This document shows positions 7,105 through 49,585 of a stretch of 64,000 nt of DNA, in pieces. Numbering within the stretch: position 1 is the stretch's first letter; each line of letters begins with the position of its first letter. Both the position numbers and the translations under genes were made by a program. The notes under the pieces were generated by a model. It did not search any database. It was not told the origin of the DNA and saw only the letters and a list, made by a program, of their open reading frames with translations. Origin of the DNA: Candidatus Heimdallarchaeota archaeon (GTDB taxonomy: Archaea > Asgardarchaeota > Heimdallarchaeia > Heimdallarchaeales > Kariarchaeaceae); contig JASBSB010000001.1 of NCBI GenBank assembly GCA_030149205.1, positions 393,142-457,141 of the forward strand, read 5' to 3'.

Positions 7105-7950
7105 ATGCCTGAGGGCCCAGAAGTTGAAATTGTTAAAAGAGGGTTGTTAGCAATAAAAAACCAGCAAATTTCACAAATAATTGTATCAAACCACCCGAAA
7201 TACAACCTTATTCAAGATAGACTTTCTCACATCTCAAGGGTTTTAGATATACATAGAATTGGAAAATTTTTGATTTGGGAATTTGATTCAAACGTTTTTG
7301 CAATTAACCATCTTGGAATGACCGGTATTTGGTCTATTCAGAATACAAAAGAAGAGAGTAATTTACAAGAACTTGTTTTAAAGAAACATTTCAAACTAGG
7401 CTTTCACTGTGATTCTGGGGATTTTTTCATGTTTGAGGATATTCGAACATTTGGTAGATTTGAAATTTATAATGATGACCCTAGAAAATTTCATCCAACG
7501 TTAGTAAATATGGGACCTGATATCCTTGATAAAAATTTTAGCAATGTTGAATTTTCAAAACGTTTGAAAGGAAAGGGGTCAAGGGGGAGATCCGCTGAAA
7601 TTGGAAATGCTTTGCTCAACCAATCAATAATTGCAGGATGTGGAAATATTTACAAATCAGAATCATTATTTTTAAGTAACATAGATCCAAGAAGAAAGGT
7701 AAACACATTATCTGACACAGAGATGAACAAATTAGGAGAATCACTTCAAATTGTTGCAAAGAAAGCCTTAGAAGCAGGGGGATCTACAATACGTGATTTT
7801 GTTACAGTAGATGGGTATGATGGATTAATGCAGAATGAGTTTAAAATTTACGGGAAAGAAAATGAGCCTTGCCCAAACTGCCAATCAACTATTATAAAGA
7901 TTAAGCAAGGAGGGAGATCAACATATTTATGCGCAAAATGTCAAAAATAA
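7105..7950 (+). CDS. Fpg/Nei family DNA glycosylase/AP lyase (formamidopyrimidine-DNA glycosylase-like)
   Basis: Starts MPEGPEVEIVKRGL, the catalytic Pro2/Glu3 N-terminus PELPEVE of Fpg/Nei. H2TH-like region NALLNQSIIAGCGNIYKSESLF. C-terminal zinc finger CPNCQSTIIKIKQGGRSTYLCAKCQ. Confidence 0.85.
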   Translation: MPEGPEVEIVKRGLLAIKNQQISQIIVSNHPKYNLIQDRLSHISRVLDIHRIGKFLIWEFDSNVFAINHLGMTGIWSIQNTKEESNLQELVLKKHFKLGFHCDSGDFFMFEDIRTFGRFEIYNDDPRKFHPTLVNMGPDILDKNFSNVEFSKRLKGKGSRGRSAEIGNALLNQSIIAGCGNIYKSESLFLSNIDPRRKVNTLSDTEMNKLGESLQIVAKKALEAGGSTIRDFVTVDGYDGLMQNEFKIYGKENEPCPNCQSTIIKIKQGGRSTYLCAKCQK

Positions 7951-8011: not shown

Positions 8012-8446
8012 ATGGTTTTAGATAGTCGATCCATTTATCCCATTTTTTTGGGTATTTCTGTAATTGCCATTATTAACCATTGGCCACTTTTATTTTACCC
8101 ATTAACTCTTCTTGTTTTTATCCCCATGCTAGTCAATGTATTTACAATGAAGTCTAATTACAGGTACAACCTTAAAATTATAATTTATATTATACTGACT
8201 GATGGTGCTTTAATGCTTTATCTAACTTTGACACTCCCGGCATTCGGTCTGTTTTTTGTTGTAATACCTGTATTCTATTGGATAGTGTTAATAATATTTT
8301 ATTACACGATTAAGAGGGAGGTTAAGATAATTTCAAGACCCATATTTACTATGAATGATGATGATGCTTACAGAGCAAGAAAAGCGATGATAACCAGACA
8401 TCCTGAGGACATTATAAACATCCAAAAATACAAAAAATTCAGCTAA
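8012..8446 (+). CDS. small integral membrane protein (hypothetical)
   Basis: 144-aa ORF with 3-4 hydrophobic helices. Convergent with the next gene, overlapping it by 4 nt at the stop. Confidence 0.35.
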   Translation: MVLDSRSIYPIFLGISVIAIINHWPLLFYPLTLLVFIPMLVNVFTMKSNYRYNLKIIIYIILTDGALMLYLTLTLPAFGLFFVVIPVFYWIVLIIFYYTIKREVKIISRPIFTMNDDDAYRARKAMITRHPEDIINIQKYKKFS

Positions 8447-9771
8447 AACCACGGGTGCAAAATCTGTTGGTTTAACTCATTTACGTAACGAACAGCATAT
8501 GGGATAAATTGGAGCATCCGCAATTCTATTGACCATATTTTACCCTTCTCTTTTATATAAAATATATTTTTTTGATCTGGATAAGTGTTGACCAATTTAT
8601 GTATCCATCCAATAAAACTAAAACTTCCATCTGAATACCTCGGTTGATTTATCAGTCTACCCTGAGCATCTCTTTCTTCTAAGATTAATTCATCATCAAG
8701 TTCTTTTGAAATTTGTATTAGGATTGCATCGAGCCTATTTATAACTGCAAGGTCCCTATACAATAGAGAATATTGGAACAGTGAATTGAGGCTGTTTAAG
8801 CTATTCTCTACCCATTTTTTATATCCGTATCTTGGTCCATCAGGTTTGTTGTTGCTGCGTTTTAAAATGGTTCCAAAATGTTTAATCTGGTAATTAATGA
8901 ATCCGTCCAATGTCATTTCTTCTTGTGTGATTCCTCCAAATCTATATCTAGCCCAGGGGGTTAGATTGTATGCAGTCTTTTTCGGGTTGAAGGTGAAATT
9001 TGGAACATTGAAATATGTCAAATAGATCTCTAAGTTCTTGTATAGTTCATATGCAAATTTTAATTCAATTCCCAAAACCCGTCGAAAGATTCGGGTGTCA
9101 CTTAATAAATGAACAACAACATCATCGAAAGGTGAATTAGTCACACGTTTGAGCTCTTCAGTTTGATCATATCGTAAACACACATAGCCTACAAACATGA
9201 AAATCCAAATTGACATTTTACTTTCGATTTGTTTATCATTTATAGATTTGAGATAGTTGGTGAAAATTTGTTTGTAGTCAATTGTATCCCTCAACAAGAG
9301 GTATTCACTTTCTAGTGCTGTGACTTTAGCTACCATTTTTTCAAATTGAAAGGTTGGTACTCTTACATCACCTCGACCATCTGCTTGTAAGGCTAAAGAA
9401 AGTTCATCTTCACCCATGTTAATTTCTTTGATCATTTTGTTTAAAAACCATAATTGACCGTTGAATCCCTCGGAAATTACATCTTTGACAAAATCATTAA
9501 AACTAATCAATGGGAAAGGTATTGAAAAAAAAGAACCAAATAAGACTGGTAGAGAATCTATTAGTGAATTAATGGTTGGATAAAACTTGGTCTTCGTTCG
9601 TCTAATATTAAGCTTAACTTTTTGTCTTTTCTCCCGGATTTTTTTATTCTTCTGAATCTCCCTCAATTCATCCTCTCCAATCTCATCAATGGCATTAGAC
9701 TCAGGTTTCAAATCATTATCATTTGACTCTTCTGAACTTGAGTTAAAGTTTAGATTGGGAGGATTAGACAA
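8443..9771 (-). CDS. hypothetical protein with acidic N-terminus (442 aa), operon partner of the ASKHA ATPase
   Basis: Starts 11 nt downstream of the stop of 9782-12406 on the same strand. No recognisable motif. Confidence 0.5.
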   Translation of the reverse strand: MSNPPNLNFNSSSEESNDNDLKPESNAIDEIGEDELREIQKNKKIREKRQKVKLNIRRTKTKFYPTINSLIDSLPVLFGSFFSIPFPLISFNDFVKDVISEGFNGQLWFLNKMIKEINMGEDELSLALQADGRGDVRVPTFQFEKMVAKVTALESEYLLLRDTIDYKQIFTNYLKSINDKQIESKMSIWIFMFVGYVCLRYDQTEELKRVTNSPFDDVVVHLLSDTRIFRRVLGIELKFAYELYKNLEIYLTYFNVPNFTFNPKKTAYNLTPWARYRFGGITQEEMTLDGFINYQIKHFGTILKRSNNKPDGPRYGYKKWVENSLNSLNSLFQYSLLYRDLAVINRLDAILIQISKELDDELILEERDAQGRLINQPRYSDGSFSFIGWIHKLVNTYPDQKNIFYIKEKGKIWSIELRMLQFIPYAVRYVNELNQQILHPWF

Positions 9772-9781
9772 GTTTATGCAC

Positions 9782-12406
9782 CTAAATTATAGGGAAAAGT
9801 TCAATGTAATCATTCTGAGATGGACTAACATCCTTTTCTGAGACTGTAATACAAAGCCAACCGTTATCACGAACACCTATTCTAATTACCGGGTTCTCTA
9901 AATCTTTGGTGTCTACAATTAAAGGAAAGTCAAGGACTGGTTCGAAATCAAAAAACTCTGTTGTTAACAACTCAGTCTTTAATATATTTATATCATTTTC
10001 TTGAATTTTTGAGTAGTTTAACCTCTTGATCCATAAGTCCAAAATTAAGCTATGAAACTCAAAATTCTTTTTAACCTCAATTTTCTTTACTTCATTGTAA
10101 ATCCCTTCTTTCTCGTCAATTAACGGAAGAAGACTTAGCATTCCCGAAGATGCTGTGTTTGTTTGAATGGAATCTCCAGGATTTGAGATTATATTTTGGC
10201 CATTCCCAAAGATTCCAGCTCCAAGAGAAAGGTGGTTCTTGTTATCCTCAACAATTAATTTCACTTTTTTATCTAATAAATTGTAAATATATTCTTGAAA
10301 CAATGGCCAGTTTGCGCCTCCTCCAGAGAGAATAACTTGATTTAGCTTTTCGAGTTCAAAATTTTCTTCAGAAATTATCGCAAGTAAATCTCGCATTAAG
10401 AATTGTAATGCTATAAAAACTGAATTCTCTTCATCAATGATCACTTCTGATTTGTCTTTGGGTTCCCCAAGGATTTTAATTTTTAAAGGGCTTTCTGTGT
10501 ATTTTTCTTCAGTTAGTTCAAATTCTTTAGATAAGGTCTGTTTAATTTCTGAAAACACCTTGTAGTCGCAGTATGATCTATTTATGTTTAATTTTGAAAG
10601 ATGTGTCGAAATTTCATTGTCGTAAGAATTCATTCCTTTTCCTAATGAAAGAGACACGGAACTTATTGGAGCCTCTTCTACCCCTTCTAACAAACTATCA
10701 ATTTTTCTCTTTCTACTTTTATTGCTAGGAATATCAACCAATGAACCAGTAATATGAGTGTCTCCGAGGTCTAACACTATTGATTTGCCTTCCTCCTTGT
10801 ATGCACGAAAGGATGCCAAAGTTGAAGCTAAACTAGCTTCCAATCCATAGATTTGATTAAACCCAAATTCAGTGAGGAAGTTATGAAACCATCGTCTGTA
10901 TTCTACAGTGGTATGTTTCTCAAAGGTAAAAGTTGCAACTTGAACTGAATATTTTAACTCGGCTAAGATCCTTTTGATCACCTTTCTAAGAAAATCCTCA
11001 GTAGCCTTTCTTGGAGTTATTGTTAAATTTCTTACTCTAATACTATCTAAGGAGTCTTCTTGTATTAGTTGTTTTAAATTAAACATAGTTAGGTCACTGT
11101 TAACCACTTCAGAATTTTCCATTGAAATTTCGTCTCCAACTAAAAATTGGTCAGGGGTTATGTAGGATACTACAGTGGGTTGAACAATATGTAAAAGTTC
11201 ATGACCACAATCAGAGGGGACAATGGAAATTTTGGTTTCTGTATTCCCAAAATCTATCCCCAATGTGCAACACCCATGGGGTGTTCTTCCTTGGAGAGGT
11301 TCACTTTCCTTTATATCAAATACGTTAAAAGACCTACCGTGATGTAGATCTGTTAATAGTTTTAGTGTTTCTAGGATTCGTTTTTGAAGTCCAGATAGTG
11401 AACTTATCAGAGTCTGGAGTGAGTCATCAATTAAATGCGTATGTTGATTTAGTGGAATCAAAAACATCGCCAGGGTATCCATATCAACAGAATAATTTTG
11501 CCCCTTGCTTTTGATTGTTATATACAGACCATCCTCATCCATTAAGAACGAGGATACTGAATTTGCATGTGCAACAATTTCTGCAAGAAGGATTCCATTT
11601 GTGGAATAAACTGGGATATGAAGCTTTCCTGTGAAATTTGAATATCTAACTCTTTCATCATAAATTGCTAGATTTAGCTCCCTATCAACTAAATTAAACC
11701 TACCACGATCTACAAACTCCATATCAGGAATTCGATCAGGCCTTGTATATACTATTTGAGTGACATTTATTTCAACAAACTTTGATTGACGGTCAGCTTC
11801 TGATAAAAATTCAAACTCTCCGGTCTTTTTATCCTCTTTTGTTATTGCCAAATTTAGAATCCAAGAGACACCATCCCACCCATTTTCTCCTAGGTATTCA
11901 CTTAAAAGTTCGAAGAAGTAACGACTCTCTTTTGATTCTGGTCTCCAATCCTCTTTGTTGAGAATTTTCATTAATTCACTGACAAAGGGGAAAGGGTATT
12001 CTAAGACACTCTTCCAGAGAGTATTAAAATCTTTCTTACTCAGTAATTCAGCAATTGTTGGTTTTGAGACTCCAACATATCTTAATCTTTTTTTCTTAAA
12101 TAATTTTTCTGACAGTTTACCTGCCCTTTCGAATATCAAACTTCCCAGTGATGGGTCAAGAGTCTGTAAATAATGTTCAAGCTCTACAAGATCAGGATCA
12201 ATCTCCAGGAGTAAATCAATTTCATCAAGCATGACTAATGTCGCTGACAACGTTGATCGTTTGATCTTATCCCAGTTTGCTTCTATCGTTTCCTTTACAA
12301 ACGATTTGAGACTAGGGAGAGGGTGACTTATCCATAGGTCCAATACCTGTTCTCTTTTAAAAGATGGCAAAAATCTCTGTACGTGATCTAAAGCCAGCTT
12401 TCGCAC
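9782..12406 (-). CDS. large protein with central Hsp70/actin-superfamily (ASKHA) ATPase domain
   Basis: Phosphate-1-like LGIDFGNTETKISIV, phosphate-2-like IVLDLGDTHITGSLVD and adenosine-like VILSGGGANWPLFQEYIYNLL motifs in the order expected for Hsp70/MreB/actin-fold ATPases. They are flanked by ~350-aa N-terminal and ~110-aa C-terminal regions of unknown function. Confidence 0.6.
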   Translation of the reverse strand: MRKLALDHVQRFLPSFKREQVLDLWISHPLPSLKSFVKETIEANWDKIKRSTLSATLVMLDEIDLLLEIDPDLVELEHYLQTLDPSLGSLIFERAGKLSEKLFKKKRLRYVGVSKPTIAELLSKKDFNTLWKSVLEYPFPFVSELMKILNKEDWRPESKESRYFFELLSEYLGENGWDGVSWILNLAITKEDKKTGEFEFLSEADRQSKFVEINVTQIVYTRPDRIPDMEFVDRGRFNLVDRELNLAIYDERVRYSNFTGKLHIPVYSTNGILLAEIVAHANSVSSFLMDEDGLYITIKSKGQNYSVDMDTLAMFLIPLNQHTHLIDDSLQTLISSLSGLQKRILETLKLLTDLHHGRSFNVFDIKESEPLQGRTPHGCCTLGIDFGNTETKISIVPSDCGHELLHIVQPTVVSYITPDQFLVGDEISMENSEVVNSDLTMFNLKQLIQEDSLDSIRVRNLTITPRKATEDFLRKVIKRILAELKYSVQVATFTFEKHTTVEYRRWFHNFLTEFGFNQIYGLEASLASTLASFRAYKEEGKSIVLDLGDTHITGSLVDIPSNKSRKRKIDSLLEGVEEAPISSVSLSLGKGMNSYDNEISTHLSKLNINRSYCDYKVFSEIKQTLSKEFELTEEKYTESPLKIKILGEPKDKSEVIIDEENSVFIALQFLMRDLLAIISEENFELEKLNQVILSGGGANWPLFQEYIYNLLDKKVKLIVEDNKNHLSLGAGIFGNGQNIISNPGDSIQTNTASSGMLSLLPLIDEKEGIYNEVKKIEVKKNFEFHSLILDLWIKRLNYSKIQENDINILKTELLTTEFFDFEPVLDFPLIVDTKDLENPVIRIGVRDNGWLCITVSEKDVSPSQNDYIELFPII

Positions 12407-12693
12407 TTCATCAGACTCATGATGATCAATTATTTCAAATATTTGTACTAAAGTTGTCTCATTTTTGGATCTCAGCCAATCTTTAAAGAGGTCAGAGAAT
12501 GCGATTAATTCCTCTTCAGTTGGGTTCTCGATATATCTGGAGTTTAATAGTTCATAGGTTTCTGTTTGTTCTATCTTGCATCTCCTCTCTTATTTTGAAT
12601 AAATCAACAAAGACTCTTCTATCTAAATTTTAATTTGAGTTTAGAAAATAAAAACCCTTTTATGAACTGCAATACATTAGAGTACATCTAATA

Positions 12694-25790: not shown

Positions 25791-26269
25791 AAATAAGTAT
25801 TCTCATCTCAATTTCTGTTTATTTATTATTTCCGAAAGATAACATCAATATTCTATGTTGTGAAACTATCTAATTTTTTATTTTTGTTGTTCGATCTTTG
25901 CTATAGTTGTTGAGTAGTGAAATTTACTAAATTTGTTGCTCAATTTTTTTTTGTTAGAGATAAATTTTGAGTAACCTTAGCCATTTAATATATAATAATT
26001 TTAAATTTTAATCCTGTTGAATCTGGTCATCAAACATTTCAATAATTTTATAATTTTGTTAGACTAATACTTAAGTAAAATACAAAATGCGATTTTGACA
26101 AAAAGAGTTCAATTTGCCTTAAATCAATGTTGTTATAACCAAATTTCTATGTTGAAACATAAAGTGAATTGCTTTAAGAGTAAACAAGCCCTATTATGTC
26201 GAAATAAATTTATAATCAGATAATAACTCATTCAAATTTATTCATCCATCAATATTCTGGAAATAAAAT

Positions 26270-26881
26270 TTAAATTTTAACAGTTTCTATACAAACTATA
26301 ATTTTTTCGAACTCTTTGTAAATTTTATGACTTGAAGTTACAAATTCTAATAGTTCCTTGGATTTTTGTTCTAATTGAAATTCTGACGGATTGCCTTGAG
26401 CAAGGTGAAAATAATCTGTAACTAATTCATTAGCAGACGTAGTAGTTTGCTCTACAGCATCAATGACTGATGTTATCTTCCCAAGGCTAATTTTGCTGTA
26501 ATTTTTAATTCTGTCCATAAAAAGGTTAAACTTAAACCTATACTCATTAATCTTGGTATTAGCATTCAAATACTCTCTTTTAGACATTTTCATATTTTCC
26601 ACTACAAAATTTGATAACACCAGCTCATGGAATTGTGAAATTAACTTATACACCTCTATTAGCAAATCATTTTTTATTTCTTTTTCAGATTTTATTAATT
26701 GGAAATTTGAAATACCTAATTTTGCAAATTCCCATGTTAGATATATCAATAAAATATTGATATATAACCTCAATAAAAGTTCAATCATCATTCTATCAAG
26801 TATTTTCCAAATATAATAATCTAGTAAGATTGGGGTTATTGTAAAAATACTAAATACAGCAAAATACAATTTACTTTTCAT
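26270..26881 (-). CDS. hypothetical membrane-anchored coiled-coil protein (203 aa)
   Basis: Two N-terminal TM helices, then a helical K/E-rich region. Lies in an AT-rich low-density region. Confidence 0.35.
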   Translation of the reverse strand: MKSKLYFAVFSIFTITPILLDYYIWKILDRMMIELLLRLYINILLIYLTWEFAKLGISNFQLIKSEKEIKNDLLIEVYKLISQFHELVLSNFVVENMKMSKREYLNANTKINEYRFKFNLFMDRIKNYSKISLGKITSVIDAVEQTTTSANELVTDYFHLAQGNPSEFQLEQKSKELLEFVTSSHKIYKEFEKIIVCIETVKI

Positions 26882-27271
26882 AATTTAATTTTTTTTTATT
26901 AAGCTTATAAACTTACATTGTTAAAAAAAAATTGCTCTACCCGATCATTCGTAATTGAATTAATAATGTTTACATTTTTATATTATTATTCAGCAATTAC
27001 AAAGGAAAATTAATTTAGCTCTTGATTTTATCCTCTTTTCCTCTGTTTATAATACCCTTCAATTAATGGAGGGTTAACTAGAATTGTAAAACTCATACTA
27101 AGGTATAGGTCAAATCTATATCTAAAACAATTTATGTTGCGTTCATCGAAACTCAAAAATTATATTAATCAACCTTTAAAATATAAATTTTAGTTTAAAT
27201 TGAAAGAAGAGACTACATCAATGAAGGGCAACAACATCGTTAATATCCAGACATAAATTATTATCTGCATT

Positions 27272-28219
27272 TTATATCAAACTTTTACATTTATTTCCAA
27301 ATTTCTTTTTATTAAATTCCAAATAACCCCTCGTTTCTGGTTCTTCTAAAGATAATTTTGTTGTCGCTAAAACTTTAACTTGACTTGGTATTTTTGGAAT
27401 TCTGTAATCTATACCTTCAATCTTATCAATGTTAAATTTAGTTCCGGTACTAGTAATTTCTAAGAAATTCTTAAAACTATCGCTATCAAAAATATTTACT
27501 AACTGTTCAAAAAGCTCAGGAAAATTAATTTGTTTATTTAGTTTCTGAATTTTTATTCCAGCTCCTATTAAGGAAGATCTTTGGATACTTGGTTTATTAA
27601 TAGCTACTTCAAGTTGATTTCTAGCTTTAATTAGTTGAACTAATTCATCAGGAATAGATGTGAAAAACAAACGATCTATTCCAATATTTAAATCGAACAC
27701 TACATCATCCACTTCAAATTTCGAATAAGTTTGTTCCATTAACTTTACATCACGAATAGAACACATTAACCAATGTGATTCTATTTGATCGTTGGTTTTA
27801 TCTTTATCAATTGAACTCTGAACTTTAACTAATTCATCCAAGTATGTTGGAGATAATTTTTGACCAAAAGTAATACGGTATTTGCTTGCTTCTGGTATCA
27901 TTGAAACTGGAAATTCCCAAGTTTCATTTTTATCAATCCATTGATTATTATCTATGTCCTTAAAATTACCTGCTTCTAGTTTTGGTTTGACTGAAAAAAT
28001 ATCTTTCGACACAGCTAGTGTCCTTCCTTTGATTGTTGAATCATAAATAGGCCCCTCTAGTAAGTATGAGTAAATTGCTTGTTGATTTTTGTAATTAATT
28101 TGCATTGATTTGGCTTGTGGGTCTAATTTTTTTAAGTCATTCTGGAATTTTGGGGGAAGAGAGCTTAACCTTTTAGCTTCATCCCTAGCTTCCTTCCTTT
28201 TTTGTTGTCTACTTTTCAT
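27272..28219 (-). CDS. hypothetical protein (315 aa), third gene of the methyltransferase-led cassette
   Basis: Its ATG directly abuts the TAA stop of the upstream 359-aa gene (stop 28222-28220, start 28219-28217), suggesting translational coupling. Basic N-terminus. No recognised motif. Confidence 0.5.
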   Translation of the reverse strand: MKSRQQKRKEARDEAKRLSSLPPKFQNDLKKLDPQAKSMQINYKNQQAIYSYLLEGPIYDSTIKGRTLAVSKDIFSVKPKLEAGNFKDIDNNQWIDKNETWEFPVSMIPEASKYRITFGQKLSPTYLDELVKVQSSIDKDKTNDQIESHWLMCSIRDVKLMEQTYSKFEVDDVVFDLNIGIDRLFFTSIPDELVQLIKARNQLEVAINKPSIQRSSLIGAGIKIQKLNKQINFPELFEQLVNIFDSDSFKNFLEITSTGTKFNIDKIEGIDYRIPKIPSQVKVLATTKLSLEEPETRGYLEFNKKKFGNKCKSLI

Positions 28220-30733: not shown

Positions 30734-33700
30734 ATGCAACAACTAGCCGAGTCAGAGATTTACCATTCAAAACACAAGGTTCGTGTAATCACAGCAACCT
30801 CATTATTCGACGGTCATGATGCCACCATTAACATCATTAGGCGTATTCTACAAGATTCAGGAGCTGAAGTTATTCATTTAGGGCATAACAGAAGTGTTTG
30901 GGATGTAGTTAAAGCTGCAATTCAGGAGGATGCACAAGGAATCTGTGTCTCAAGCTATCAAGGAGGTCACATGGAATATTTCAATTACATGAGAGAACTG
31001 TTGGACAAGCTAGGAGCAAGTCACATTAAGATTTTTGGAGGGGGTGGGGGAGTTATAATTCCTGATGAAATCAAAAAACTGGAATCTTCAGGGATACAAA
31101 AGATATTTTCTCCAGATGATGGTAGGATACTAGGGCTTCAGGGTATGATAAATGTTATTTTAAAAGAGTGTGATTTTTCTACACCCTCAATAGATGTTCT
31201 CGACTCAAACAAAATTGAGGACACTTGGAAGAAGACTGCAAGTTTGATATCCTTAGCAGAAAGACAAAAATTTAACCCAACTTCGCAGAGTAGAGCCATC
31301 CCTGTAATTGGGATCACTGGAACAGGTGGAGCTGGAAAATCTTCTCTGACGGATGAGCTTGCCAGACGTGTCTCAATTGACTTTCCGAAAATTAAAATCG
31401 CAATTATATCAATTGACCCATCTAAGAGAAAGACAGGAGGAGCCCTGTTAGCAGATAGAATTAGGATGAACAGTTTGACTCATTCTGACATGATTTATAT
31501 GAGGTCTTTAGCGACAAGAAGAGCTAATTTTGCAACTAGTGAGGCTGCATTAAGTGCGATTGACATCTGTAAGGAGATGAATTATGACCTTATTATTTTA
31601 GAAACATCTGGGATTGGACAGTCAGGGTCAGAAGTCGTGGATATTGCAGATATCTCAATATATGTAATGACAACTGATTATGGTGCATCAACTCAGCTTG
31701 AAAAAATTGATATGATTGATTTTGCTGATTTTATTGTTATAAATAAATTTGAGCGACAGGGATCACTTGATGCACTAAGAGATGTTAGAAAGCAATACAG
31801 AAGATCTAGAAAGATTTTTGACACTGAAAAATACCCAGATGAAACTCTTCCAGTTTTTGGGACAATGGCAAGCCAATTTAATGATGCAGGAGTTAATTCA
31901 CTATATTTAGCTTTGTTGGGTCTAATCAATGATCGATTCGATAATTTAGAGTTTATTTCAAATTTGGATAAGGAACATCAGTTACCAACCGGCATCTCTA
32001 CCCGTAATGTTATAGTCCCACCGGAACGAGTTAGATATCTCTCAGAAATTTCAGAGACGATTCGGGGTTATAAAAATCAAGCGAAAGAACAAGCAGAACT
32101 AGCAAGAGAGTTATGGCATCTTATCTCCGTTAGAGATAGGTTGGTAAACACTAGTCAACCTACGGAGCTTATTAACTTATTAAACAAAGATATTGACGAA
32201 TTATTTACCAATTTAAACTCAGATGTGGCTGACATCATTGATAACTGGAATGAGGTAAAATCCAGATATCAAAATCCAGAGTTTGTTTACAAAGTTAGAG
32301 GGAAAGATATTAAGGTGAAAACATCAACAGAGTCACTTTCACACCTACAAATCCCTAAAGTTGCCCTCCCAAGGTACAAAGATTGGGGAGAAATTGTATC
32401 CTGGACTTTATTAGAAAATGTTCCTGGGGAATTTCCCTTTACTGCAGGAGTTTATCCATTCAAGCGAACTCAAGAAGACCCAACAAGGATGTTTGCTGGT
32501 GAAGGCCCACCAGAGAGAACAAACAAGAGATTTCATTATTTATCTGATGGTCAACCTGCTGCAAGATTATCTACAGCATTTGACTCAGTAACATTGTATG
32601 GTGAGGATCCAAATGAGAGGCCAGACATTTTTGGGAAAATTGGAGAGAGTGGAGTTTCTATCTGTACAATCGAAGATATGGAAAGACTGTATGCTGGATT
32701 TAATTTGTGTTCTCCTAAAACATCAGTCAGTATGACAATAAATGGCCCTGCTCCGATAATGCTTGCATTTTTCTTCATGACTGCCGTCCGTCAGCAGGTC
32801 AGAAAATGGGTGGTTGACCAAGGGCTGTTAAAGCCAATGGAGGCATTTGTGGTCTCAGGTGATGGGAGGGTTGGTTACGATGTTCATCTGGGAACTAGTC
32901 TAACTGTTGAAAAAAATCTCACAAAGAGTTGGGAGGAAATCAAGAAACTGGTACCCAACGATATCTATGAGGAAATTAAATCTCAAACATTTACCTCTGT
33001 TAGAGGCACAGTACAGGCAGATATTCTTAAAGAAGATCAAGCACAAAACACCTGTATATTTTCCACCTTCTTTTCACTGAAGATGATGGGGGATATTCAA
33101 GAATATTTTGTGAATCATAATGTGAAGAATTACTATTCTGTATCAATCTCTGGGTATCATATTGCTGAGGCTGGAGCAAACCCTATAACCCAGACAGCAT
33201 TCACACTTGCTAACGGATTCACATATCTAGAGTATTATAGAGCTAGAGGGTTGGATGTAGATAAATTTGCACACAACTTCTCATTCTTTTTCTCAAATGG
33301 TCTTGACCCAGAGTACAGTGTCATAGGTAGAGTCGCTAGAAGAATCTGGGCTGTGGCTTTAAAACACAAGTATAATGCAGGGAAGAGAAGCCAAATGTTG
33401 AAATACCACATACAAACAAGTGGAAGAAGTTTACATGCACAAGAGGTTGATTTTAATGATATTCGAACGACCTTACAGGCACTTTTGGCAATTTATGACA
33501 ATTGTAATTCACTTCACACAAATGCATATGATGAGGCTGTCACAACGCCTACAGAGGAATCTGTGAGAAGGGCAATGGCTATTCAGTTAATTATTAACAG
33601 GGAGTTTGGGTTAACCACAAATGAAAATCCCAACCAAGGTTCATATATTATTGAAGAACTAACAGAATTGGTAGAAGAAGCCATTCTATCTGAGTTTGAC

Positions 33701-34105
33701 AGGCTAACTGAAAGAGGGGGGGTGTTAGGAGCAATGGAAACCCAGTATCAACGTGGTAAAATACAAGAAGAGTCATTATATTATGAGACGTTAAAAGCAA
33801 CTGGAGACCTTCCGATTATGGGAGTAAACACTTTTTTGAACCCTCATCGTAAGAGCAATACACTTGAGGTCCCCTCACTAATTCGAGCATCACACGAAGA
33901 AAAAACACTTCAAATCAATAGATTAAGAGAATTTCAGTCAAAACATAAGGATCTAGCTGTTGAGTCCCTTAAGCAATTACAAAAAGTATCAATAGAGGGT
34001 AAAAATATTTTTGAAGAGCTACTTCAAACAGTTGAGAGCTGTAGTCTTGGTCAGATAAGCAAAGCATTGTATGATGTAGGTGGAGAATATAGAAGAAATC
34101 TATAG
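30734..34105 (+). CDS. icmF: fused isobutyryl-CoA mutase-like protein (B12-binding domain + MeaB-type G-protein + acyl-CoA mutase barrel)
   Basis: N-terminal B12 domain [24 protein letters not shown]...GHNRSV. MeaB/ArgK-like P-loop [13 protein letters not shown] with a NKFE(R) motif. C-terminal ~560 aa mutase substrate domain. The domain order matches IcmF rather than split MCM + MeaB. Confidence 0.8.
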
Positions 34106-45647: not shown

Positions 45648-47789
45648 TTGGTACAATCATTGTCAATTCAAATTGAAAATATTAGTAGCAGAATTCAACA
45701 ATTTCTAATAATAGTTTTAGCGGGAGTCTATACCACAATACAGTCCCTTGTTCCTTCAACTATTAGAATACTTCCGGGTTTGGATATAACAAATCAAGGA
45801 TTTGGACTATTTGTTCTTGCAACAGGGGCAATGATATTTGGAAAGGGAGTTGGAGCAGGTTCCGCAGGTTTAGGTGTGATTTTTGACCAGTTTAAAGTTG
45901 TTCTTGATGGGTCCTCTGTCCCTAACTTGAATCTTGGGCTATTGGTCGGAACTGTAAGTTTAGGACTAGGTGCATGGTTAACAGGATTCCTTGAAAACGG
46001 TCGTACTGGAGATTTTGTTTCTTCAAGTTTTAAAGGTGTCATGTCAAAGGCGGAAATTCTTAAAGTGGGGAGAAAAACCTTGGTTTCAATAGTTGGCTTA
46101 GGAATCACCTCAAACTTTACGTATGCGTTTGGAGCTCAATTAATAGAAGGTGGAAACATCTTTGGAGCTATTACCTATTTTTTGACAACTTTCTTAGAAG
46201 ACAGCTTTGTGCTCATATTAACAGTTCCAATATCACTTTTAGCATTTGATATTACAAATGTTTACAATGAAAAAAAATCAAATTTTATAGAGCAATTAAA
46301 TCAAAAGGTGGATTATAAAATCGAGGTTTCACAATCTGCTGAAATTTTGAAGGTTTCGTTACCTGAGACTTCCTTAGTTCAAGGGAAGTGGACACCAGTT
46401 GTGGTTGAGTTTATGAATCCATCAACTGAAAAAAAGCAATATCAGGTTGAAGCAGTATTTACCACAAAATTTTATCCTCACACTGACAAAACACCTCAAC
46501 TCAAACCTGGTGAGGGATGGAAACAGACATTTTTCGTTCTCCCCAGTAAGCAGAGTTCAGTTTACGGGAGAATTAGGATAACCAGTAACAACGACATACA
46601 GTACAAATCATCAAACCCTGATGAGTCAATTGTTGAAATTACCGCTAATTCAAGAGACCCCAACACCATAATTGGTTCACTAATAGGCTTAAGTGGTGTA
46701 AATTTTGGGATTCTTGGAATTTCTGTTATTTGGGATCAGGTTTTATCATTTTTTTCTAACCCTGAATTGCTCTTATCTCAATTTCAATCTACGGTTTCAA
46801 CATTGTCTGAAGTAATTTTTGCTGAAATCTTATTATTCATTTCATTGTTATTATGGACAGTGTTTCGTACAAAGAAGGAGAAAACCCAATTTTCACAAAA
46901 GATTAGTTTTTCGAGTGATTTAGATGACCAGCTAATTCAATCGCTTAAGGCAAATTCAATAAGGATAATGCTCAAAAAATATGGAAATGGGCTAACAAGC
47001 GTTTTTCGGGTGCTTATTGGAATAAGCAGTTTAGGGTTAATCATATTTTTGGGAAACCAGGGGTATCAAGTAATTACAAATCCCACGTACACTGTTACTA
47101 ACCAAGAGTTGCTTTTTGGTTTAATTTTAGGGATGATAATTTCTTGGGTGCTCGGATTCAGAGGTTTACAGATAATTACTGAGATGAATCTCAAAAATGC
47201 AGCATATAATAATAACCCTGATGACTTTGTTCAAGAGTTCAAACCTGTTGGGGATATAAATGAAAATGAACCCAATAATTTTCTATTTAAGGTGATTAAT
47301 ACTTCTGATTTACCAGGAATAAGAATCAAATTTGAATCAACAGATTCAATTGCTCCACCTTTAATAGAACTACACATAGAACCTGGTGAGATAGCTCAAT
47401 TTAAGGTCGTAGTCACTCCTAATACAGGAAATCATAAAATTTTAGCATTAGCTTATCCGCTGTTTGATAAAAAGAAAAAATATGTGAATTTTGATGAATC
47501 TGAACCTTTTGCTAAACAGGAGCTTAGTTTTGCAGTAAATTCAAAAGGAGTCCTGGGGATGTCAAAAAAACAACAATCCCAACTTAAAGGTATTACTGCT
47601 TTGTTGACTGGTTTTACTGGATTACTGGCAGTTATCAATCAGATAGTCCCAGGAAGCAATAATTTTACGATAATTCTGGATAACTTACCTGCGCTACTGA
47701 GTTTGCAGATCCCGATTTTGGGAGCATATTTCAGCTTGAATTCTACGCTAAAAAATTGGCTAATTAAATCAGGAGAAAATGACTTATGA
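45648..47789 (+). CDS. large polytopic membrane protein with central beta-rich (Ig/CARDB-like) extracytoplasmic segment; first gene of the vWA operon
   Basis: Multiple hydrophobic helices at both ends and a ~250-aa hydrophilic beta-rich middle. Its stop overlaps the start of the next gene (ATGA). Confidence 0.45.
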   Translation: MVQSLSIQIENISSRIQQFLIIVLAGVYTTIQSLVPSTIRILPGLDITNQGFGLFVLATGAMIFGKGVGAGSAGLGVIFDQFKVVLDGSSVPNLNLGLLVGTVSLGLGAWLTGFLENGRTGDFVSSSFKGVMSKAEILKVGRKTLVSIVGLGITSNFTYAFGAQLIEGGNIFGAITYFLTTFLEDSFVLILTVPISLLAFDITNVYNEKKSNFIEQLNQKVDYKIEVSQSAEILKVSLPETSLVQGKWTPVVVEFMNPSTEKKQYQVEAVFTTKFYPHTDKTPQLKPGEGWKQTFFVLPSKQSSVYGRIRITSNNDIQYKSSNPDESIVEITANSRDPNTIIGSLIGLSGVNFGILGISVIWDQVLSFFSNPELLLSQFQSTVSTLSEVIFAEILLFISLLLWTVFRTKKEKTQFSQKISFSSDLDDQLIQSLKANSIRIMLKKYGNGLTSVFRVLIGISSLGLIIFLGNQGYQVITNPTYTVTNQELLFGLILGMIISWVLGFRGLQIITEMNLKNAAYNNNPDDFVQEFKPVGDINENEPNNFLFKVINTSDLPGIRIKFESTDSIAPPLIELHIEPGEIAQFKVVVTPNTGNHKILALAYPLFDKKKKYVNFDESEPFAKQELSFAVNSKGVLGMSKKQQSQLKGITALLTGFTGLLAVINQIVPGSNNFTIILDNLPALLSLQIPILGAYFSLNSTLKNWLIKSGENDL

Positions 47790-49585
47790 GTAAAAAACTT
47801 CTTTCTGTACTAACCTTAACCTTTATTCTGTTGGGAGCAGGGTTTACATATTATTCATTTACTACCCCAACAATTGACTTAAGTCCAGAATTTGCGGCTC
47901 AGGCAATTCAATTAACTTCTGGAGCGAACTTACTCTTTGGAGGAAATGCTTTGAAACTACTAAACAAATACGAGGGAATTGGAAAAATAACCAAGGATTA
48001 TCTTACTGATGTATTTAAATTTAATATGAAAGGGAAAAAGAACACACTTTATTACCAAAACTTAAACAATTTGATTCCAGGATATTCCAATCCCCCTAAC
48101 TTTGCATTTGACCCCACATACAATGAAAGCATATCTACTCAAGGGTTAGGATTCAACATTGCACCTTCATCTTTTATTAAAAGTTATCAAAACAAATTCC
48201 TCTCAACACCGATTGAAAGTACAGATCCTTTATCAAAGATCCCAGATAGTATGAAAGAAAATATAAATAAAACATCAAGACTGTTTGATGTTTGGAAACA
48301 AACTTTAACAGGAAATACCTCCTATTTTAATTTTGTATCAACTTCTGGCTACTCATTAAATTACCCGTTTTTCTCTCTCCCTAAGATTTATGATGGAAGA
48401 AATGAATCTTTCTACAACTCTGCGATAATTGGACAAAAAGATCTTGTAATAGTGATTGATAGATCTGGATCATTGAACAAAGATACTTTTACTGCACTTA
48501 AGAACTCAATTAAGTCAATCATAAACACCCTATCTCCATCAGACAGATTCAATATTTTAACATTTTCAGATCATGTTTCTGTTTTTTCGAATAGTTTGAG
48601 CAGTGCAACTATTAGTACAAAAATTTTAGCAGAGAAATATATAGATAGAATTAGATTAGGTGGGCTTTCAGACATTGGGATGGGATTTACTTCGGGATTA
48701 AAAATTCTGACAGATTTTGGATATCAGAGGAATAAGCGATTGTTTCTCACCTTTTCAGATGGAAAACCTACTTCAGGTGTAATTCAAAATGATTCATTAA
48801 TCCAAGAGATTGTTAGTGCAAATGGTGGAGCTAAAGCAACCCCAATATTTTACGGGATTACCAAAAATCCTAATAATGAAATGTTTACCTCCTTGGCAAA
48901 TCAGATGGGAGGGTTCTATATTAACACAAATACCACGAGTAAACTACTTAACTTGGTTCCCAACTATAATAAGCTAATAAACAATATTACTTCTGAAAAC
49001 AAAATTTGGAGTACTCCCTTTGTAAGCTCTATTAACCACAATATTTTCTCTAACTTAAGTTTTGCAATAAATTATGCTGGTCAACACTTTGGAGTTTTTA
49101 ACATCCAAGTTAAGCTATCTGAATTTTTGGAGAGTTTACAGAAGACAAAGTTGTATAATTCCCAGACTAACTTTATAATCAACACTGGAGGATACACCTT
49201 TGCTCATCCTATATTTGAAAGTCTCCAATTAAAAGACAGAATTACAAACAACCTTCAACAACCAATCGAAAATTTTACGCTAACCTCGGCCGATTTCAAA
49301 GGGATGTTGACGGATTTAGCCAAAAATAACTATAAGACCAAAATAGTTCAGAGTAATAATTTAACTAAGTTTGTGATTTCCTTATCACCGCTTGGACAAA
49401 CAGGATTGGTTTCAGGAACTATCATCCCATTAACTGAAATAATCAACCAAAACATCTTAGGTTCACTTTCTGGTCACAGACCAAATTTTGAAGGAATGTA
49501 TCTTTCCTTTGCTATTGCTGTAACCGTTGGAATAATTATCATTTTGTTAAGTAGCAGAATTCTGAAGGAGGAAACAAAACAATGA
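47786..49585 (+). CDS. von Willebrand factor A (vWA) domain membrane protein
   Basis: N-terminal signal/TM. MIDAS-type motif LVIVIDRSGSLNKDTF...SDRFNILTFSDHV...FSDGKPTSG. C-terminal TM helix. Start and stop codons overlap both neighbours. Confidence 0.65.
   Translation: MSKKLLSVLTLTFILLGAGFTYYSFTTPTIDLSPEFAAQAIQLTSGANLLFGGNALKLLNKYEGIGKITKDYLTDVFKFNMKGKKNTLYYQNLNNLIPGYSNPPNFAFDPTYNESISTQGLGFNIAPSSFIKSYQNKFLSTPIESTDPLSKIPDSMKENINKTSRLFDVWKQTLTGNTSYFNFVSTSGYSLNYPFFSLPKIYDGRNESFYNSAIIGQKDLVIVIDRSGSLNKDTFTALKNSIKSIINTLSPSDRFNILTFSDHVSVFSNSLSSATISTKILAEKYIDRIRLGGLSDIGMGFTSGLKILTDFGYQRNKRLFLTFSDGKPTSGVIQNDSLIQEIVSANGGAKATPIFYGITKNPNNEMFTSLANQMGGFYINTNTTSKLLNLVPNYNKLINNITSENKIWSTPFVSSINHNIFSNLSFAINYAGQHFGVFNIQVKLSEFLESLQKTKLYNSQTNFIINTGGYTFAHPIFESLQLKDRITNNLQQPIENFTLTSADFKGMLTDLAKNNYKTKIVQSNNLTKFVISLSPLGQTGLVSGTIIPLTEIINQNILGSLSGHRPNFEGMYLSFAIAVTVGIIIILLSSRILKEETKQ

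What the first reader, a model, noticed from the sequence alone, without database searches (positions are those of the whole stretch)
8443..12406. 874-aa protein with a central Hsp70/actin-fold ATPase domain plus 442-aa partner
The large ORF contains phosphate-1, phosphate-2 and adenosine-like motifs in ASKHA order, embedded between about 350 aa N-terminal and about 110 aa C-terminal sequence of unknown function. A 442-aa acidic-N-terminus protein follows 11 nt later. The architecture does not match canonical DnaK, MreB, FtsA, crenactin or actin lengths. It may be an uncharacterised actin/Hsp70-like machine.
Basis: partly seen in the sequence, partly recalled or inferred. Interest (0 to 1): 0.55.

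Follow-up and report, generated by a model that had tools for sequence, protein, structure and literature searches.

The report
Asgard-specific extended lidless Hsp70-like protein
The large gene encodes a previously undescribed, Heimdall-group (Asgard) archaeal offshoot of the Hsp70 chaperone family, with a new, strongly conserved N-terminal half and no lid, usually sitting near a 442-aa helical protein and a small membrane protein; what it does is unknown.

Summary
Both ORFs exist as described, on the minus strand: 9782..12406 (874 aa) and 8443..9771 (442 aa), 10 nt apart. The ASKHA call is correct and resolves to the Hsp70 branch, not actin, ParM or a sugar kinase. The family profile hits BiP and DnaK nucleotide-binding domains (E 6e-5). 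The AF2 model matches full-length Hsp70s over 530-570 columns (Foldseek E 1e-17), so the "unknown" C-terminus is probably a diverged substrate-binding beta-domain that ends where the helical lid would start.

The N-terminal half is a HEAT-like solenoid plus a beta domain with no known relative. It is the best-conserved part (45-47% identity, against 24-29% for the Hsp70 part). The ORF is under-called: 61 more in-frame codons upstream hold family-invariant residues but no ATG, GTG or TTG.

About 20 clusters exist among 1.8 billion representatives. Nearly all named ones are Heimdallarchaeota or Kariarchaeaceae, labelled "hypothetical". It is not a fusion artefact.

The partner lies near the big gene in 5 of 8 lineages. 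A 144-aa membrane protein does likewise, and an Fpg/Nei glycosylase in 6. The ATPase motifs are partly eroded. Function is inferred only: a specialised, possibly membrane-tethered Hsp70-derived clamp or adaptor.

The parts
9782..12406 (-). Called ORF of the large protein (874 aa, GTG start; stop codon at 9782-9784)
   Evidence: There are six full-length homologues at 33-39% identity and about 13-19 more cluster representatives.
12407..12589 (-). Probable N-terminal extension of the same ORF: 61 in-frame codons after TAA 12590-12592. It has no ATG, GTG or TTG. Candidate near-cognate starts are ATA 12572-12574, 7 nt after GGAG, and an ATC further downstream (inspection only).
   Evidence: The stretch holds family-invariant residues (L34 F35 W38 H57 E58 S59 in 935-numbering). 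The sequence is identical in the Logan assembly.
11846..12406 (-). HEAT-like alpha-solenoid (aa 1-187 of the 874-aa form; continues into the upstream extension, 15 helices in all)
   Evidence: AF2 models. Weak Pfam HEAT_2 and Xpo1 hits in two family members each. No significant Foldseek match. Mean pairwise identity 45%.
11483..11845 (-). Conserved beta domain (aa 188-308) holding the family's strongest motifs (TRPDR, RGR, HIPxY, MDEDG)
   Evidence: It is the most conserved segment (47% identity). The TRPDR...RGR loop has pLDDT below 50.
11327..11482 (-). Three linker helices (aa 309-360)
10172..11326 (-). Hsp70-type nucleotide-binding domain (aa 361-745)
   Evidence: Profile against the PDB gives BiP/DnaK at E 6e-5. 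Foldseek gives E 1e-17. See also the alignment with canonical Hsp70.
11231..11260 (-). Phosphate-1 motif GIDFGNTETK (aa 383-392). It is preceded by the invariant C379 C380 and followed by the invariant C400 x H402.
10748..10774 (-). Phosphate-2 motif LDLGDTHIT (aa 545-553). The Asp is kept, but the GGGT loop is replaced by GDTH. The conserved basic loop NKSRKRK (aa 562-568) follows.
10304..10336 (-). Adenosine motif VILSGGGANWP (aa 691-701)
9785..10171 (-). C-terminal beta-rich domain (aa 746-874), a probable diverged Hsp70 SBD-beta. The protein ends where the helical lid would begin.
   Evidence: Foldseek alignments to full-length Hsp70s span 530-570 columns, against ~385 for NBD-only targets. 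The MAFFT alignment is collinear with canonical SBD-beta. hhalign gives E 1.3e-3 (probability 19%) to the bacterial lidless group, which in turn matches canonical SBD-beta at 96% probability. The direct comparison is not significant.
8443..9771 (-). 442-aa partner: conserved MSxPNLG N-terminus, an acidic then basic disordered stretch, then a ~350-aa region with scattered invariant residues and no TM segment (helical character inferred, not modelled). Probably co-transcribed with the large gene.
   Evidence: Homologues lie near the big gene in L005, L006/L012, L011 and L014. There is no Pfam, PDB or PADLOC relative.
8012..8446 (+). 144-aa small membrane protein (3-4 TM segments) with a conserved basic cytosolic tail RPIFxxNxxExxxARxAxxxRxPxxI. 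It is convergent with the partner and overlaps it by 4 nt.
   Evidence: Homologues lie within 1.2 kb of the big gene in L005, L006/L012, L008 and L011.
7105..7950 (+). Fpg/Nei DNA glycosylase, a persistent neighbour of the cluster whose functional link is uncertain
   Evidence: It lies near the big gene in L006/L012, L011, L014 and L015/L016, and ~7 kb away in L002/L007.

Best explanation
WHAT IT IS (shown). The gene encodes a cytosolic, strongly acidic protein. It is called at 874 aa but is probably about 930 aa. It belongs to a small family restricted, as far as names go, to Heimdallarchaeota/Kariarchaeaceae (Asgard) genomes.

The domain order is:
- a HEAT-like alpha-solenoid
- a conserved beta domain
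- a helical linker
- an Hsp70-type nucleotide-binding domain
- a diverged Hsp70 substrate-binding beta-domain, with no helical lid

It is a derived offshoot of the Hsp70 superfamily, not an actin, ParM or MreB relative. Its nearest relatives are Heimdallarchaeial paralogues with the same N-terminal domain and canonical ATPase motifs, followed by bacterial ~520-aa lidless 'Hsp70 family proteins'.

HOW IT PROBABLY WORKS (inferred). The N-terminal solenoid and beta domain are the constrained part, so they most likely bind one specific client or platform. The Hsp70-like module would act as a nucleotide-modulated peptide clamp.

In the window protein the P1 Asp, the Lys70 and Glu171 equivalents, the P2 Asp and the adenosine glycines are all kept. 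Nucleotide binding and slow hydrolysis are therefore plausible. The altered P2 loop, the missing hydrophobic NBD-SBD linker and the missing lid argue against a classical DnaK-type allosteric cycle.

The 442-aa protein (co-transcribed here) and the 144-aa membrane protein with a basic cytosolic tail are proposed to be its dedicated cofactor or client and its membrane anchor. This would parallel the way membrane-anchored cofactors (Sec63, Tim44/Pam18) recruit eukaryotic Hsp70s.
For: Identity:
- The family profile hits BiP/DnaK NBDs at E 6e-5, ahead of MreB at 1.6e-4.
- All top 50 Foldseek hits are Hsp70s (E 1e-17 to 1e-14), and full-length targets align over 530-570 columns.
- The exhaustive HMM search links the family to many ~520-aa proteins; those sampled score Pfam HSP70 at E 1e-26 to 1e-32.
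- Paralogues P0021/22/23/26/63 share the N-terminal domain and carry canonical IGIDFGNST, DIGGGTTD and GGGSKWP motifs.
- Named members are Heimdallarchaeota or Kariarchaeaceae.

Catalytic residue map.

Inverted conservation: solenoid 45% and beta domain 47% identity, against NBD 29% and SBD-beta-like 24%.

Neighbourhood: the partner, the small membrane protein and Fpg recur next to the big gene in shuffled order and orientation. All other flanking genes differ.

Operon signs: a 10-nt gap and an AGGTG before the partner's TTG.

Charge and topology:
- The big protein has no TM segment and a net charge of -42.
- The membrane protein's tail is +5.
- The partner has a +7 stretch.

The P0002/3/4 clade has lost P2 Asp, K70 or E171 in various combinations. 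It is also the clade without partner or membrane protein within 8-10 kb.
Against: - There is no experimental or structural evidence for any interaction among the three proteins.
- Gene proximity may reflect inherited synteny. Fpg/Nei, with no obvious link to a chaperone, is as persistent a neighbour as the partner.
- The partner and the membrane protein are missing from the sequenced flanks (2-10 kb) in 3 of 8 lineages.
- No J-domain or GrpE-like protein is nearby.
- SBD-beta homology is weak at sequence level. The direct hhalign comparison is not significant, and the bridged one gives E 1.3e-3 at 19% probability.
- The AF2 models are of moderate quality (pLDDT 70 and 68, from 7 sequences).
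- The window protein itself is below Pfam's HSP70 threshold (14.9 against 20.6 bits).
- ATPase motifs are not conserved across the family, so the module may be a nucleotide-independent scaffold.
Confidence: 0.55

Rival explanations
1. Nucleotide-independent scaffold or pseudo-ATPase. The Hsp70-like module has lost its catalytic cycle and serves only as a structural or peptide-binding appendage of the conserved N-terminal domain. The neighbouring genes are unrelated synteny.
For: - The NBD and SBD-like parts are the least conserved regions.
- The P2 loop is GDTH instead of GGGT.
- P0002, P0003 and P0004 lack the P2 Asp, K70 or E171 in various combinations.
- The hydrophobic interdomain linker and the lid are absent.
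- Fpg is as persistent a neighbour as the partner.
Against: - The window protein and most orthologues keep the P1 Asp-x-Gly (at least 90% conserved).
- The window protein also keeps the K70 and E171 equivalents and the P2 Asp, and the family keeps an invariant adenosine-motif Gly.
- The paralogues have fully canonical motifs.
Confidence: 0.25
2. Sensor-switch of a conflict or defence system. A repeat-containing sensor (the solenoid) is fused to an Hsp70-type NTPase switch, as in bacterial conflict systems that use HSP70-family proteins or STAND-like NTPase-plus-repeat architectures.
For: - A bacterial relative of the ATPase domain is fused to WD40 repeats (P0049).
- HSP70-family components are described in GTPase-centred conflict systems (PMC7159879).
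- The Hsp70 module evolves fast.
Against: - There is no PADLOC hit for either protein.
- No effector domain (nuclease, protease, TIR and the like) is present in the cluster.
- The putative sensor part is the MOST conserved region, the opposite of what is usual for diversifying sensors.
- Flanking genes are housekeeping and GC content is even across the locus.
- The family looks vertically inherited within one archaeal group.
Confidence: 0.07
3. Actin-, ParM- or MreB-like filament-forming cytoskeletal ATPase.
For: - Weak MreB_Mbl, FtsA and MreB-like_C Pfam hits occur in some family members.
- The family profile hits an MreB structure at E 1.6e-4.
- Asgard archaea are rich in actin-family proteins (general knowledge).
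Against: - Hsp70 scores better than MreB in nearly all profile comparisons.
- All top 50 structural matches are Hsp70s, and the matches extend into the SBD-beta.
- The closest outgroup clearly carries an SBD-beta.
Confidence: 0.04
4. DNA-damage-related factor working with the neighbouring Fpg/Nei glycosylase. The HEAT-like solenoid and basic loops would bind DNA.
For: - Fpg/Nei lies next to the cluster in 6 of 8 lineages.
- It is co-directional and adjacent to the partner in L006/L012, and to the membrane protein in the window.
- The family has conserved basic motifs, KSRKRK and TRPDR...RGR.
- One member gives a very weak hit to the HEAT-like DNA_alkylation family (E 0.11).
Against: - The protein is strongly acidic overall (net -42).
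- The solenoid shows no structural match to AlkD-type glycosylases.
- A membrane protein in the cluster does not fit this role.
- Fpg is not within 8 kb in L005, nor in L003/L004/L009 or L010.
Confidence: 0.06

Closest known systems
Canonical Hsp70 (DnaK, HscA, BiP, Hsc70)
   Same: - It has a four-subdomain actin-fold NBD with phosphate-1, phosphate-2 and adenosine motifs in the same order.
- The window protein has equivalents of D8, K70, E171 and D194.
- A beta-sandwich follows the NBD in the SBD-beta position.
   Different: - It has a ~420-aa N-terminal solenoid plus beta domain.
- It has no helical lid and no conserved VLLLD linker.
- The P2 loop is GDTH, not GGGT.
- It carries family-specific CC...CxH and KSRKRK features.
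- The NBD is the least conserved part rather than the most conserved.
- It falls far below the Pfam and NCBIfam cut-offs (14.9 against 20.6 bits; 18 against 648 bits).
- No DnaJ or GrpE is nearby.
Heimdallarchaeial 900-990-aa paralogues (for example MBN1328671.1 'Hsp70 family protein', P0026; also P0021, P0022, P0023 and P0063)
   Same: They share the overall architecture: a homologous N-terminal helical domain (HES, LW.xP, DPxL and GW motifs), an NBD and a lidless C-terminal beta domain.
   Different: - The paralogues keep canonical ATPase motifs and pass the Pfam HSP70 threshold (E 1e-10 to 1e-24).
- They are only 16-20% identical to the window protein.
- They lack the CC...CxH cluster, and in their alignment to the orthologue profile the TRPDR/RGR beta-domain region is not covered.
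- Their gene neighbourhoods could not be fetched.
Bacterial ~520-aa lidless 'Hsp70 family proteins' (for example WP_062278449.1 of Flexilinea flocculi, P0030 cluster)
   Same: They have an NBD followed directly by an SBD-beta and end without a lid. They are the closest outgroup found by the family profile (E 1e-19 to 1e-6). Their C-terminus matches canonical SBD-beta at 96% probability and aligns collinearly with the window family's C-terminus.
   Different: They have no N-terminal extension, they are bacterial, and their ATPase motifs are canonical-like (DFGNSNT, DFGGS). Some are fused to WD40 repeats (P0049). Their function is also unknown.
Atypical eukaryotic Hsp70s that act as non-cycling partners or adaptors (Ssz1/HSPA14 of the ribosome-associated complex; Hsp110). 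From general knowledge and PMC13580251.
   Same: The concept is the same: an Hsp70-derived protein with a truncated or altered SBD and weakened ATPase cycling, repurposed as a specialised subunit. Ssz1 and Ssb structures are among the Foldseek hits (7x3k_B, 6sr6_A, 5tky).
   Different: There is no evidence of specific common ancestry with these. They lack the solenoid and beta-domain N-terminal half. No phylogeny was done here.
MreB, actin, ParM
   Same: They share the ASKHA fold. Weak profile hits exist.
   Different: Those proteins have no SBD-beta. Hsp70 scores better than MreB in nearly all comparisons, and no actin-family structure is among the top 50 Foldseek matches.

Membership tests
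Hsp70 superfamily (broad sense) | Actin-fold NBD with subdomains IA/IB/IIA/IIB and phosphate-1, phosphate-2 and adenosine motifs, closer to Hsp70 than to other ASKHA branches | tested here: met
   The family profile hits BiP/DnaK in the PDB at E 6e-5. Foldseek gives E 1e-17 and all top 50 hits are Hsp70. The motifs align column by column.
Hsp70 superfamily (broad sense) | Beta-sandwich substrate-binding domain (SBD-beta) directly after the NBD | tested here: inconclusive
   Supported by Foldseek alignment lengths (530-570 columns for full-length targets against ~385 for NBD-only) and by a collinear MAFFT alignment. hhalign is weak: direct comparison not significant; via the bacterial lidless group E 1.3e-3 at 19% probability, and that group matches canonical SBD-beta at 96%.
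Canonical Hsp70 chaperone (DnaK/HscA/Hsc70 type) | Passes the curated family thresholds (Pfam HSP70 20.6 bits; NCBIfam DnaK 648 bits; HscA 708 bits) | tested here: not met
   Pfam HSP70 scores 14.9 bits (E 0.0078). NCBIfam DnaK scores 18.4 bits and HscA 17 bits.
Canonical Hsp70 chaperone (DnaK/HscA/Hsc70 type) | Full catalytic set: P1 Asp, Lys70, Glu171, the P2 DxGGGT loop with Thr199, and Asp201 (E. coli DnaK numbering, from general knowledge) | tested here: not met
   The window protein keeps D385, K445, E523 and D546. However, its P2 loop is DLGDTHIT, with His at the Thr position and Thr at the Asp201 position. Several orthologues lose the P2 Asp, K70 or E171.
Canonical Hsp70 chaperone (DnaK/HscA/Hsc70 type) | Conserved hydrophobic NBD-SBD linker (D-V/L-LLLD) needed for allostery | tested here: not met
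   The aligned segment is NIISNPGDSIQTN in the window protein and is variable across the family.
Canonical Hsp70 chaperone (DnaK/HscA/Hsc70 type) | C-terminal alpha-helical lid (SBD-alpha) | tested here: not met
   The protein ends right after the last SBD-beta-equivalent strand. Canonical sequences continue for ~130 more residues. The model shows only beta strands at aa 746-872.
Canonical Hsp70 chaperone (DnaK/HscA/Hsc70 type) | Works with a J-domain protein and a nucleotide-exchange factor, often encoded nearby | tested here: not met
   No DnaJ or GrpE Pfam domain occurs within +/-10 kb or in the partner and membrane-protein families. An HPE tripeptide in the membrane protein's tail is not conserved in its homologues. 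Cofactors encoded elsewhere in the genome cannot be excluded.
Actin/ParM/MreB cytomotive filaments | Closest sequence or structure relatives are actin-family proteins | tested here: not met
   MreB is the only actin-family PDB hit and it scores below BiP. None appear among the top 50 Foldseek hits. Pfam MreB_Mbl is weaker than HSP70 in nearly all members scanned.
Actin/ParM/MreB cytomotive filaments | Nucleotide-dependent polymerisation | not testable with these tools
   This needs biochemistry or electron microscopy.
Known anti-phage defence systems (PADLOC-DB) | Match to a model of a known or candidate defence protein | tested here: not met
   There are no PADLOC hits at E up to 1 for either protein.
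YegD/HscC-type atypical bacterial Hsp70s | Match to the curated NCBIfam models (for example PRK11678 YegD-type 'molecular chaperone', cut-off 331 bits) | tested here: not met
   The window protein has no hit. Paralogues and the bacterial ~520-aa relatives reach only 27-36 bits.

The most novel reading that the evidence does not exclude
Asgard archaea of the Heimdall group evolved a dedicated three-component module that no known system resembles: a ~930-aa Hsp70-derived clamp with a new client-binding N-terminal half, a 442-aa cofactor and a small membrane anchor. This would be an independent example, in the closest prokaryotic relatives of eukaryotes, of an Hsp70 being repurposed into a specialised, membrane-recruited, partly non-catalytic subunit. 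The same kind of diversification produced Hsp110, Ssz1 and the membrane-tethered Hsp70 motors of eukaryotes.
Probability: 0.25. Interest if true: 0.7.

Novelty: new variant of a known kind. Interest (0 to 1): 0.5.

Why it matters
Recent reviews list the diversification of Hsp70 into specialised, partly non-catalytic paralogues as an open question. They name Asgard genomes as the place to look for "overlooked derivatives" (PMC13580251). PMC12874294 notes extra Hsp70-like copies in Asgard archaea without describing them.

This family is so diverged that none of the homologues returned by the large protein database (P0001-P0007) carries a precomputed Pfam domain, so it would be missed in such censuses. 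It offers:
- a defined, testable case of an Hsp70 fused to a new, more strongly conserved domain
- candidate partner proteins
- natural variants with intact and with eroded ATPase motifs

If the module turns out to be membrane-associated, it would bear on how Hsp70-driven membrane machinery arose before eukaryotes. If it is only a lineage-specific scaffold, it remains a modest addition to the Hsp70 superfamily.

Tried and rejected
1. **Third word-index protein search, using a broad family alignment.** Candidates were swamped by canonical Hsp70s. No new family members were returned, so the paralogues' gene contexts could not be fetched.
2. **Direct hhalign of the isolated C-terminal profile against canonical SBD-beta.** Not significant; only a 17-column match at the right strand. 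Homology had to be argued through the bacterial lidless group and the structure model.
3. **Separate AF2 model of the N-terminal 421 aa, searched with Foldseek against the PDB.** Best E was 0.44, so no fold assignment beyond 'alpha-solenoid plus beta domain'. An AlkD-like or HspBP1/Fes1-like (armadillo exchange factor) origin found no support.
4. **Partner protein.** No relative was found in Pfam, NCBIfam, PADLOC, by PDB profile, or by hhalign against the big protein's own profile.
5. **J-domain idea for the tail of the 144-aa membrane protein ('AYRARKAMITRHPED').** Rejected. The His is present only in the window copy (others have RNPAD, RNPDE, MDPKE). There is no DnaJ hit at E up to 10, and the tail is too short for a J domain.
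6. **Whether the 136-141-aa membrane protein downstream of the big gene in L002/L003 is a diverged copy of the 144-aa protein.** It has a similar size and TM-rich sequence, but HMM search gave no signal. Left open.
7. **Fusion artefact or misassembly.** Rejected. Collinear homologues exist, and the independent Logan assembly is identical over 22.4 kb.
8. **Window-wide Rfam and tRNA scans.** Nothing found.

Full report
**1. Observation**

They are 9782..12406 (874 aa, GTG start) and 8443..9771 (442 aa, TTG start). Ten nucleotides separate them. An AGGTG lies 7 nt upstream of the partner's TTG, and the partner's N-terminus (MSxPNLG) is conserved in its homologues. This supports that start and suggests co-transcription.

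The three ASKHA motifs are present in the right order. They align column for column with DLGTT, DLGGGT and GGxTRxP of canonical Hsp70s.

**2. The ORF is under-called**

The same frame stays open for 61 codons upstream of the GTG, back to TAA 12590-12592. It reads ERRCKIEQTETYELLNSRYIENPTEEELIAFSDLFKDWLRSKNETTLVQIFEIIDHHESDE. This aligns with the N-termini of all homologues and includes residues invariant across 13 orthologues: L34, F35, W38, H57, E58 and S59.

The stretch has no ATG, GTG or TTG. An ATA (12572-12574) lies 7 nt after a GGAG, and an out-of-frame ATG sits at 12579-12581. The independent Logan assembly of run SRR23576960 is identical to the window over 22.4 kb, so an assembly indel is unlikely. 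The real product is probably about 930 aa, like its homologues (907-937 aa). How translation starts is unresolved.

**3. What the ATPase is**

On its own, the protein hits Pfam HSP70 only below threshold (14.9 bits against 20.6) and NCBIfam DnaK and HscA weakly. A profile of the seven closest homologues hits BiP and DnaK NBDs in the PDB at E 6e-5 and one MreB at 1.6e-4.

An exhaustive HMMER search of 1.84 billion cluster representatives gave 259 hits:
- about 13-19 full-length relatives
- a few 900-990-aa proteins sharing the N-terminal and/or Hsp70-like parts
- a long tail of ~520-aa proteins matching the ATPase plus C-terminal region

The sampled members of that tail are Pfam HSP70-positive at E 1e-26 to 1e-32, and the one cluster looked up is bacterial and annotated 'Hsp70 family protein'.

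The AF2 model (pLDDT 70.4, pTM 0.63) matches only Hsp70 structures in the top 50 (E 1e-17 to 1e-14). The branch is therefore Hsp70, not actin, ParM or sugar kinase.

**4. The C-terminus**

Foldseek alignments to full-length or lid-truncated Hsp70s span 530-570 columns. NBD-only targets align over about 385 columns. The beta-rich aa 746-874 is therefore matched collinearly to SBD-beta.

A MAFFT alignment bridged by the paralogues and the bacterial lidless proteins places the family's C-terminus on SBD-beta. The protein ends where the lid helices of canonical Hsp70 begin.

The profile-profile results are weaker:
- direct comparison with canonical SBD-beta: not significant
- family against the bacterial lidless group: E 1.3e-3 over 119 collinear columns, at only 19% probability
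- the bacterial group against canonical SBD-beta: 96% probability, E 5e-9

I regard SBD-beta homology as likely but not proven.

**5. The N-terminal half**

The models show about 15 helices in a solenoid, an 8-9-strand beta domain and three linker helices. Foldseek finds nothing significant (best E 0.44, scattered HEAT, ARM, PUF and propeller-blade fragments). Pfam gives only weak HEAT_2 and Xpo1 hits in two members each.

This half is nevertheless the constrained part. Mean pairwise identity among 13 orthologues is 45% for the solenoid and 47% for the beta domain, against 29% for the NBD and 24% for the SBD-like domain. Invariant columns make up 12-13% against about 2.5%. The strongest motif block (TRPDR...RGR...HIPxY...MDEDG) partly lies in a loop that AF2 cannot place (pLDDT below 50), which would be consistent with an interaction site.

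**6. State of the catalytic site**

The window protein keeps the following residues (874-aa numbering):
- the P1 Asp-x-Gly (D385, G387)
- the Lys70 equivalent (K445)
- the Glu171 equivalent (E523)
- the P2 Asp (D546)
- the GGG of the adenosine motif

Its P2 loop is DLGDTHIT instead of DLGGGTFD, and the hydrophobic interdomain linker is not conserved.

Across the family, the P1 Asp and Gly are at least 90% conserved and one adenosine Gly is invariant. The P0002/P0003/P0004 clade has lost the P2 Asp, K70 or E171 in various combinations. The Heimdall paralogues P0022/23/26/63 have fully canonical motifs.

Family-specific invariants are C379, C380, C400 and H402, which flank the first beta hairpin and may form a metal or redox site. 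That is inference only, because no model coordinates were available. A basic loop, KSRKRK, follows the P2 hairpin.

**7. Distribution**

Named members are 'Candidatus Heimdallarchaeota archaeon' or 'Candidatus Kariarchaeaceae archaeon' MAGs. Kariarchaeaceae belongs to Promethearchaeati, that is Asgard. One record is labelled 'Methanobacteriota archaeon'. One distant paralogue comes from a marine sediment metagenome (LCGC14).

All orthologues are annotated 'hypothetical protein'. Paper searches on Asgard/Heimdall archaea and Hsp70 or DnaK returned no description of the family. Two recent papers only note that Asgard archaea carry uncharacterised Hsp70-like extras.

**8. Gene neighbourhood**

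I compared the window with 16 related loci, which fall into about 8 distinct lineages, using tblastn and HMMs.

| Gene | Lineages where it lies near the big gene | Distance |
|---|---|---|
| 442-aa partner | window, L005, L006/L012, L011, L014 | adjacent to about 2.5 kb, on either strand |
| 144-aa membrane protein (window 8012..8446) | window, L005, L006/L012, L008, L011 | within 1.2 kb in the related loci; ~1.3 kb in the window, just beyond the partner |
| Fpg/Nei glycosylase (window 7105..7950) | window, L006/L012, L011, L014, L015/L016; also L002/L007 | nearby; ~7 kb in L002/L007 |

The 144-aa protein has 3-4 TM segments and a conserved basic tail. Every other flanking gene differs between lineages.

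The P0002/3/4 clade (L002/7, L003/4/9, L010) has neither partner nor the 144-aa protein within 8-10 kb. It is also the clade with the most eroded ATPase motifs.

The shuffled but persistent proximity argues for a functional cluster. However, Fpg is equally persistent, which shows that inherited synteny alone could explain part of the pattern.

The partner and the membrane protein have no detectable relatives in Pfam, the PDB or PADLOC. The word-index protein search found only one other partner cluster among 5.8 billion.

**9. Mechanism**

Shown: this is a cytosolic (no TM segment), very acidic (net -42) Hsp70-superfamily derivative with a new N-terminal half, no lid and a partly altered active site.

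Inferred:
- The N-terminal half binds a specific client or platform.
- The Hsp70 module acts as a nucleotide-modulated, or in some clades nucleotide-independent, clamp.
- The co-transcribed 442-aa protein and the basic-tailed membrane protein are its cofactor or client and its membrane anchor.

I put about 0.9 on the identity and about 0.3 on this working model. The main rival is a non-catalytic scaffold with unrelated neighbours.

Defence-system, actin-like-filament and Fpg-linked DNA-repair readings were considered and are less supported.

**10. Verdict**

The feature is a new architectural variant within the Hsp70 superfamily, restricted to Heimdall-group Asgard archaea and without a known function. 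Interest is moderate.

Noticed in passing
window 12407-12589 (minus strand): Sixty-one in-frame codons upstream of the called GTG encode family-conserved sequence but contain no ATG, GTG or TTG. An ATA (12572-12574) lies 7 nt after a GGAG, and an out-of-frame ATG is at 12579-12581. This points to non-canonical initiation, a lost start codon or a frameshift.
   Followed up: partly
window 8012-8446 (+): A 144-aa small membrane protein with a conserved basic C-terminal tail recurs next to the big gene in four other lineages. It overlaps the partner's 3' end by 4 nt (convergent).
   Followed up: yes
window 7105-7950 (+); L006 12352-13179; L011 11314-12189; L014 11360-12217: A typical Fpg/Nei DNA glycosylase (N-terminal PEGPEV, C-terminal zinc finger) stays next to the cluster in most lineages while all other neighbours change. 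In L006/L012 it directly follows the partner on the same strand.
   Followed up: partly
P0002, P0003, P0004 (loci L002/L007, L003/L004/L009, L010): One orthologue clade has lost the phosphate-2 Asp, the Lys70 equivalent or the Glu171 equivalent in various combinations. It also lacks the partner and the 144-aa protein within 8-10 kb. An unrelated-looking 136-141-aa 4-TM protein sits just downstream instead.
   Followed up: partly
window 10748-11275 (aa 379-402 and 560-568 of the 874-aa protein): There are family-specific invariant residues C379, C380, C400 and H402 around the first NBD hairpin (possible metal or redox site). A conserved basic loop, KSRKRK, follows phosphate-2. Both are absent from canonical Hsp70 and from the paralogues.
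   Followed up: no
window 30734-34105 (+): A 1123-aa fused protein combines a B12-binding domain, a MeaB GTPase and a methylmalonyl-CoA-mutase domain (an IcmF-like fused mutase).
   Followed up: no
window 45648-52233 (+): Three large ORFs with 4-nt overlaps (713 aa with no Pfam hit, 599 aa with vWA and a weak Cache domain, 883 aa with no Pfam hit) look like an operon of unknown function built around a vWA protein.
   Followed up: no
window 26001-28000: GC content dips to 0.26, against about 0.33-0.36 elsewhere. The ORFs there (for example 27272..28219) have no Pfam hit.
   Followed up: no
L014 9476-9937: In one lineage a 153-aa ORF lies between the big gene and the partner. From reading its sequence it resembles a low-molecular-weight phosphatase or ArsC (CSGNxxRS motif); this was not tested with any tool.
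   Followed up: no
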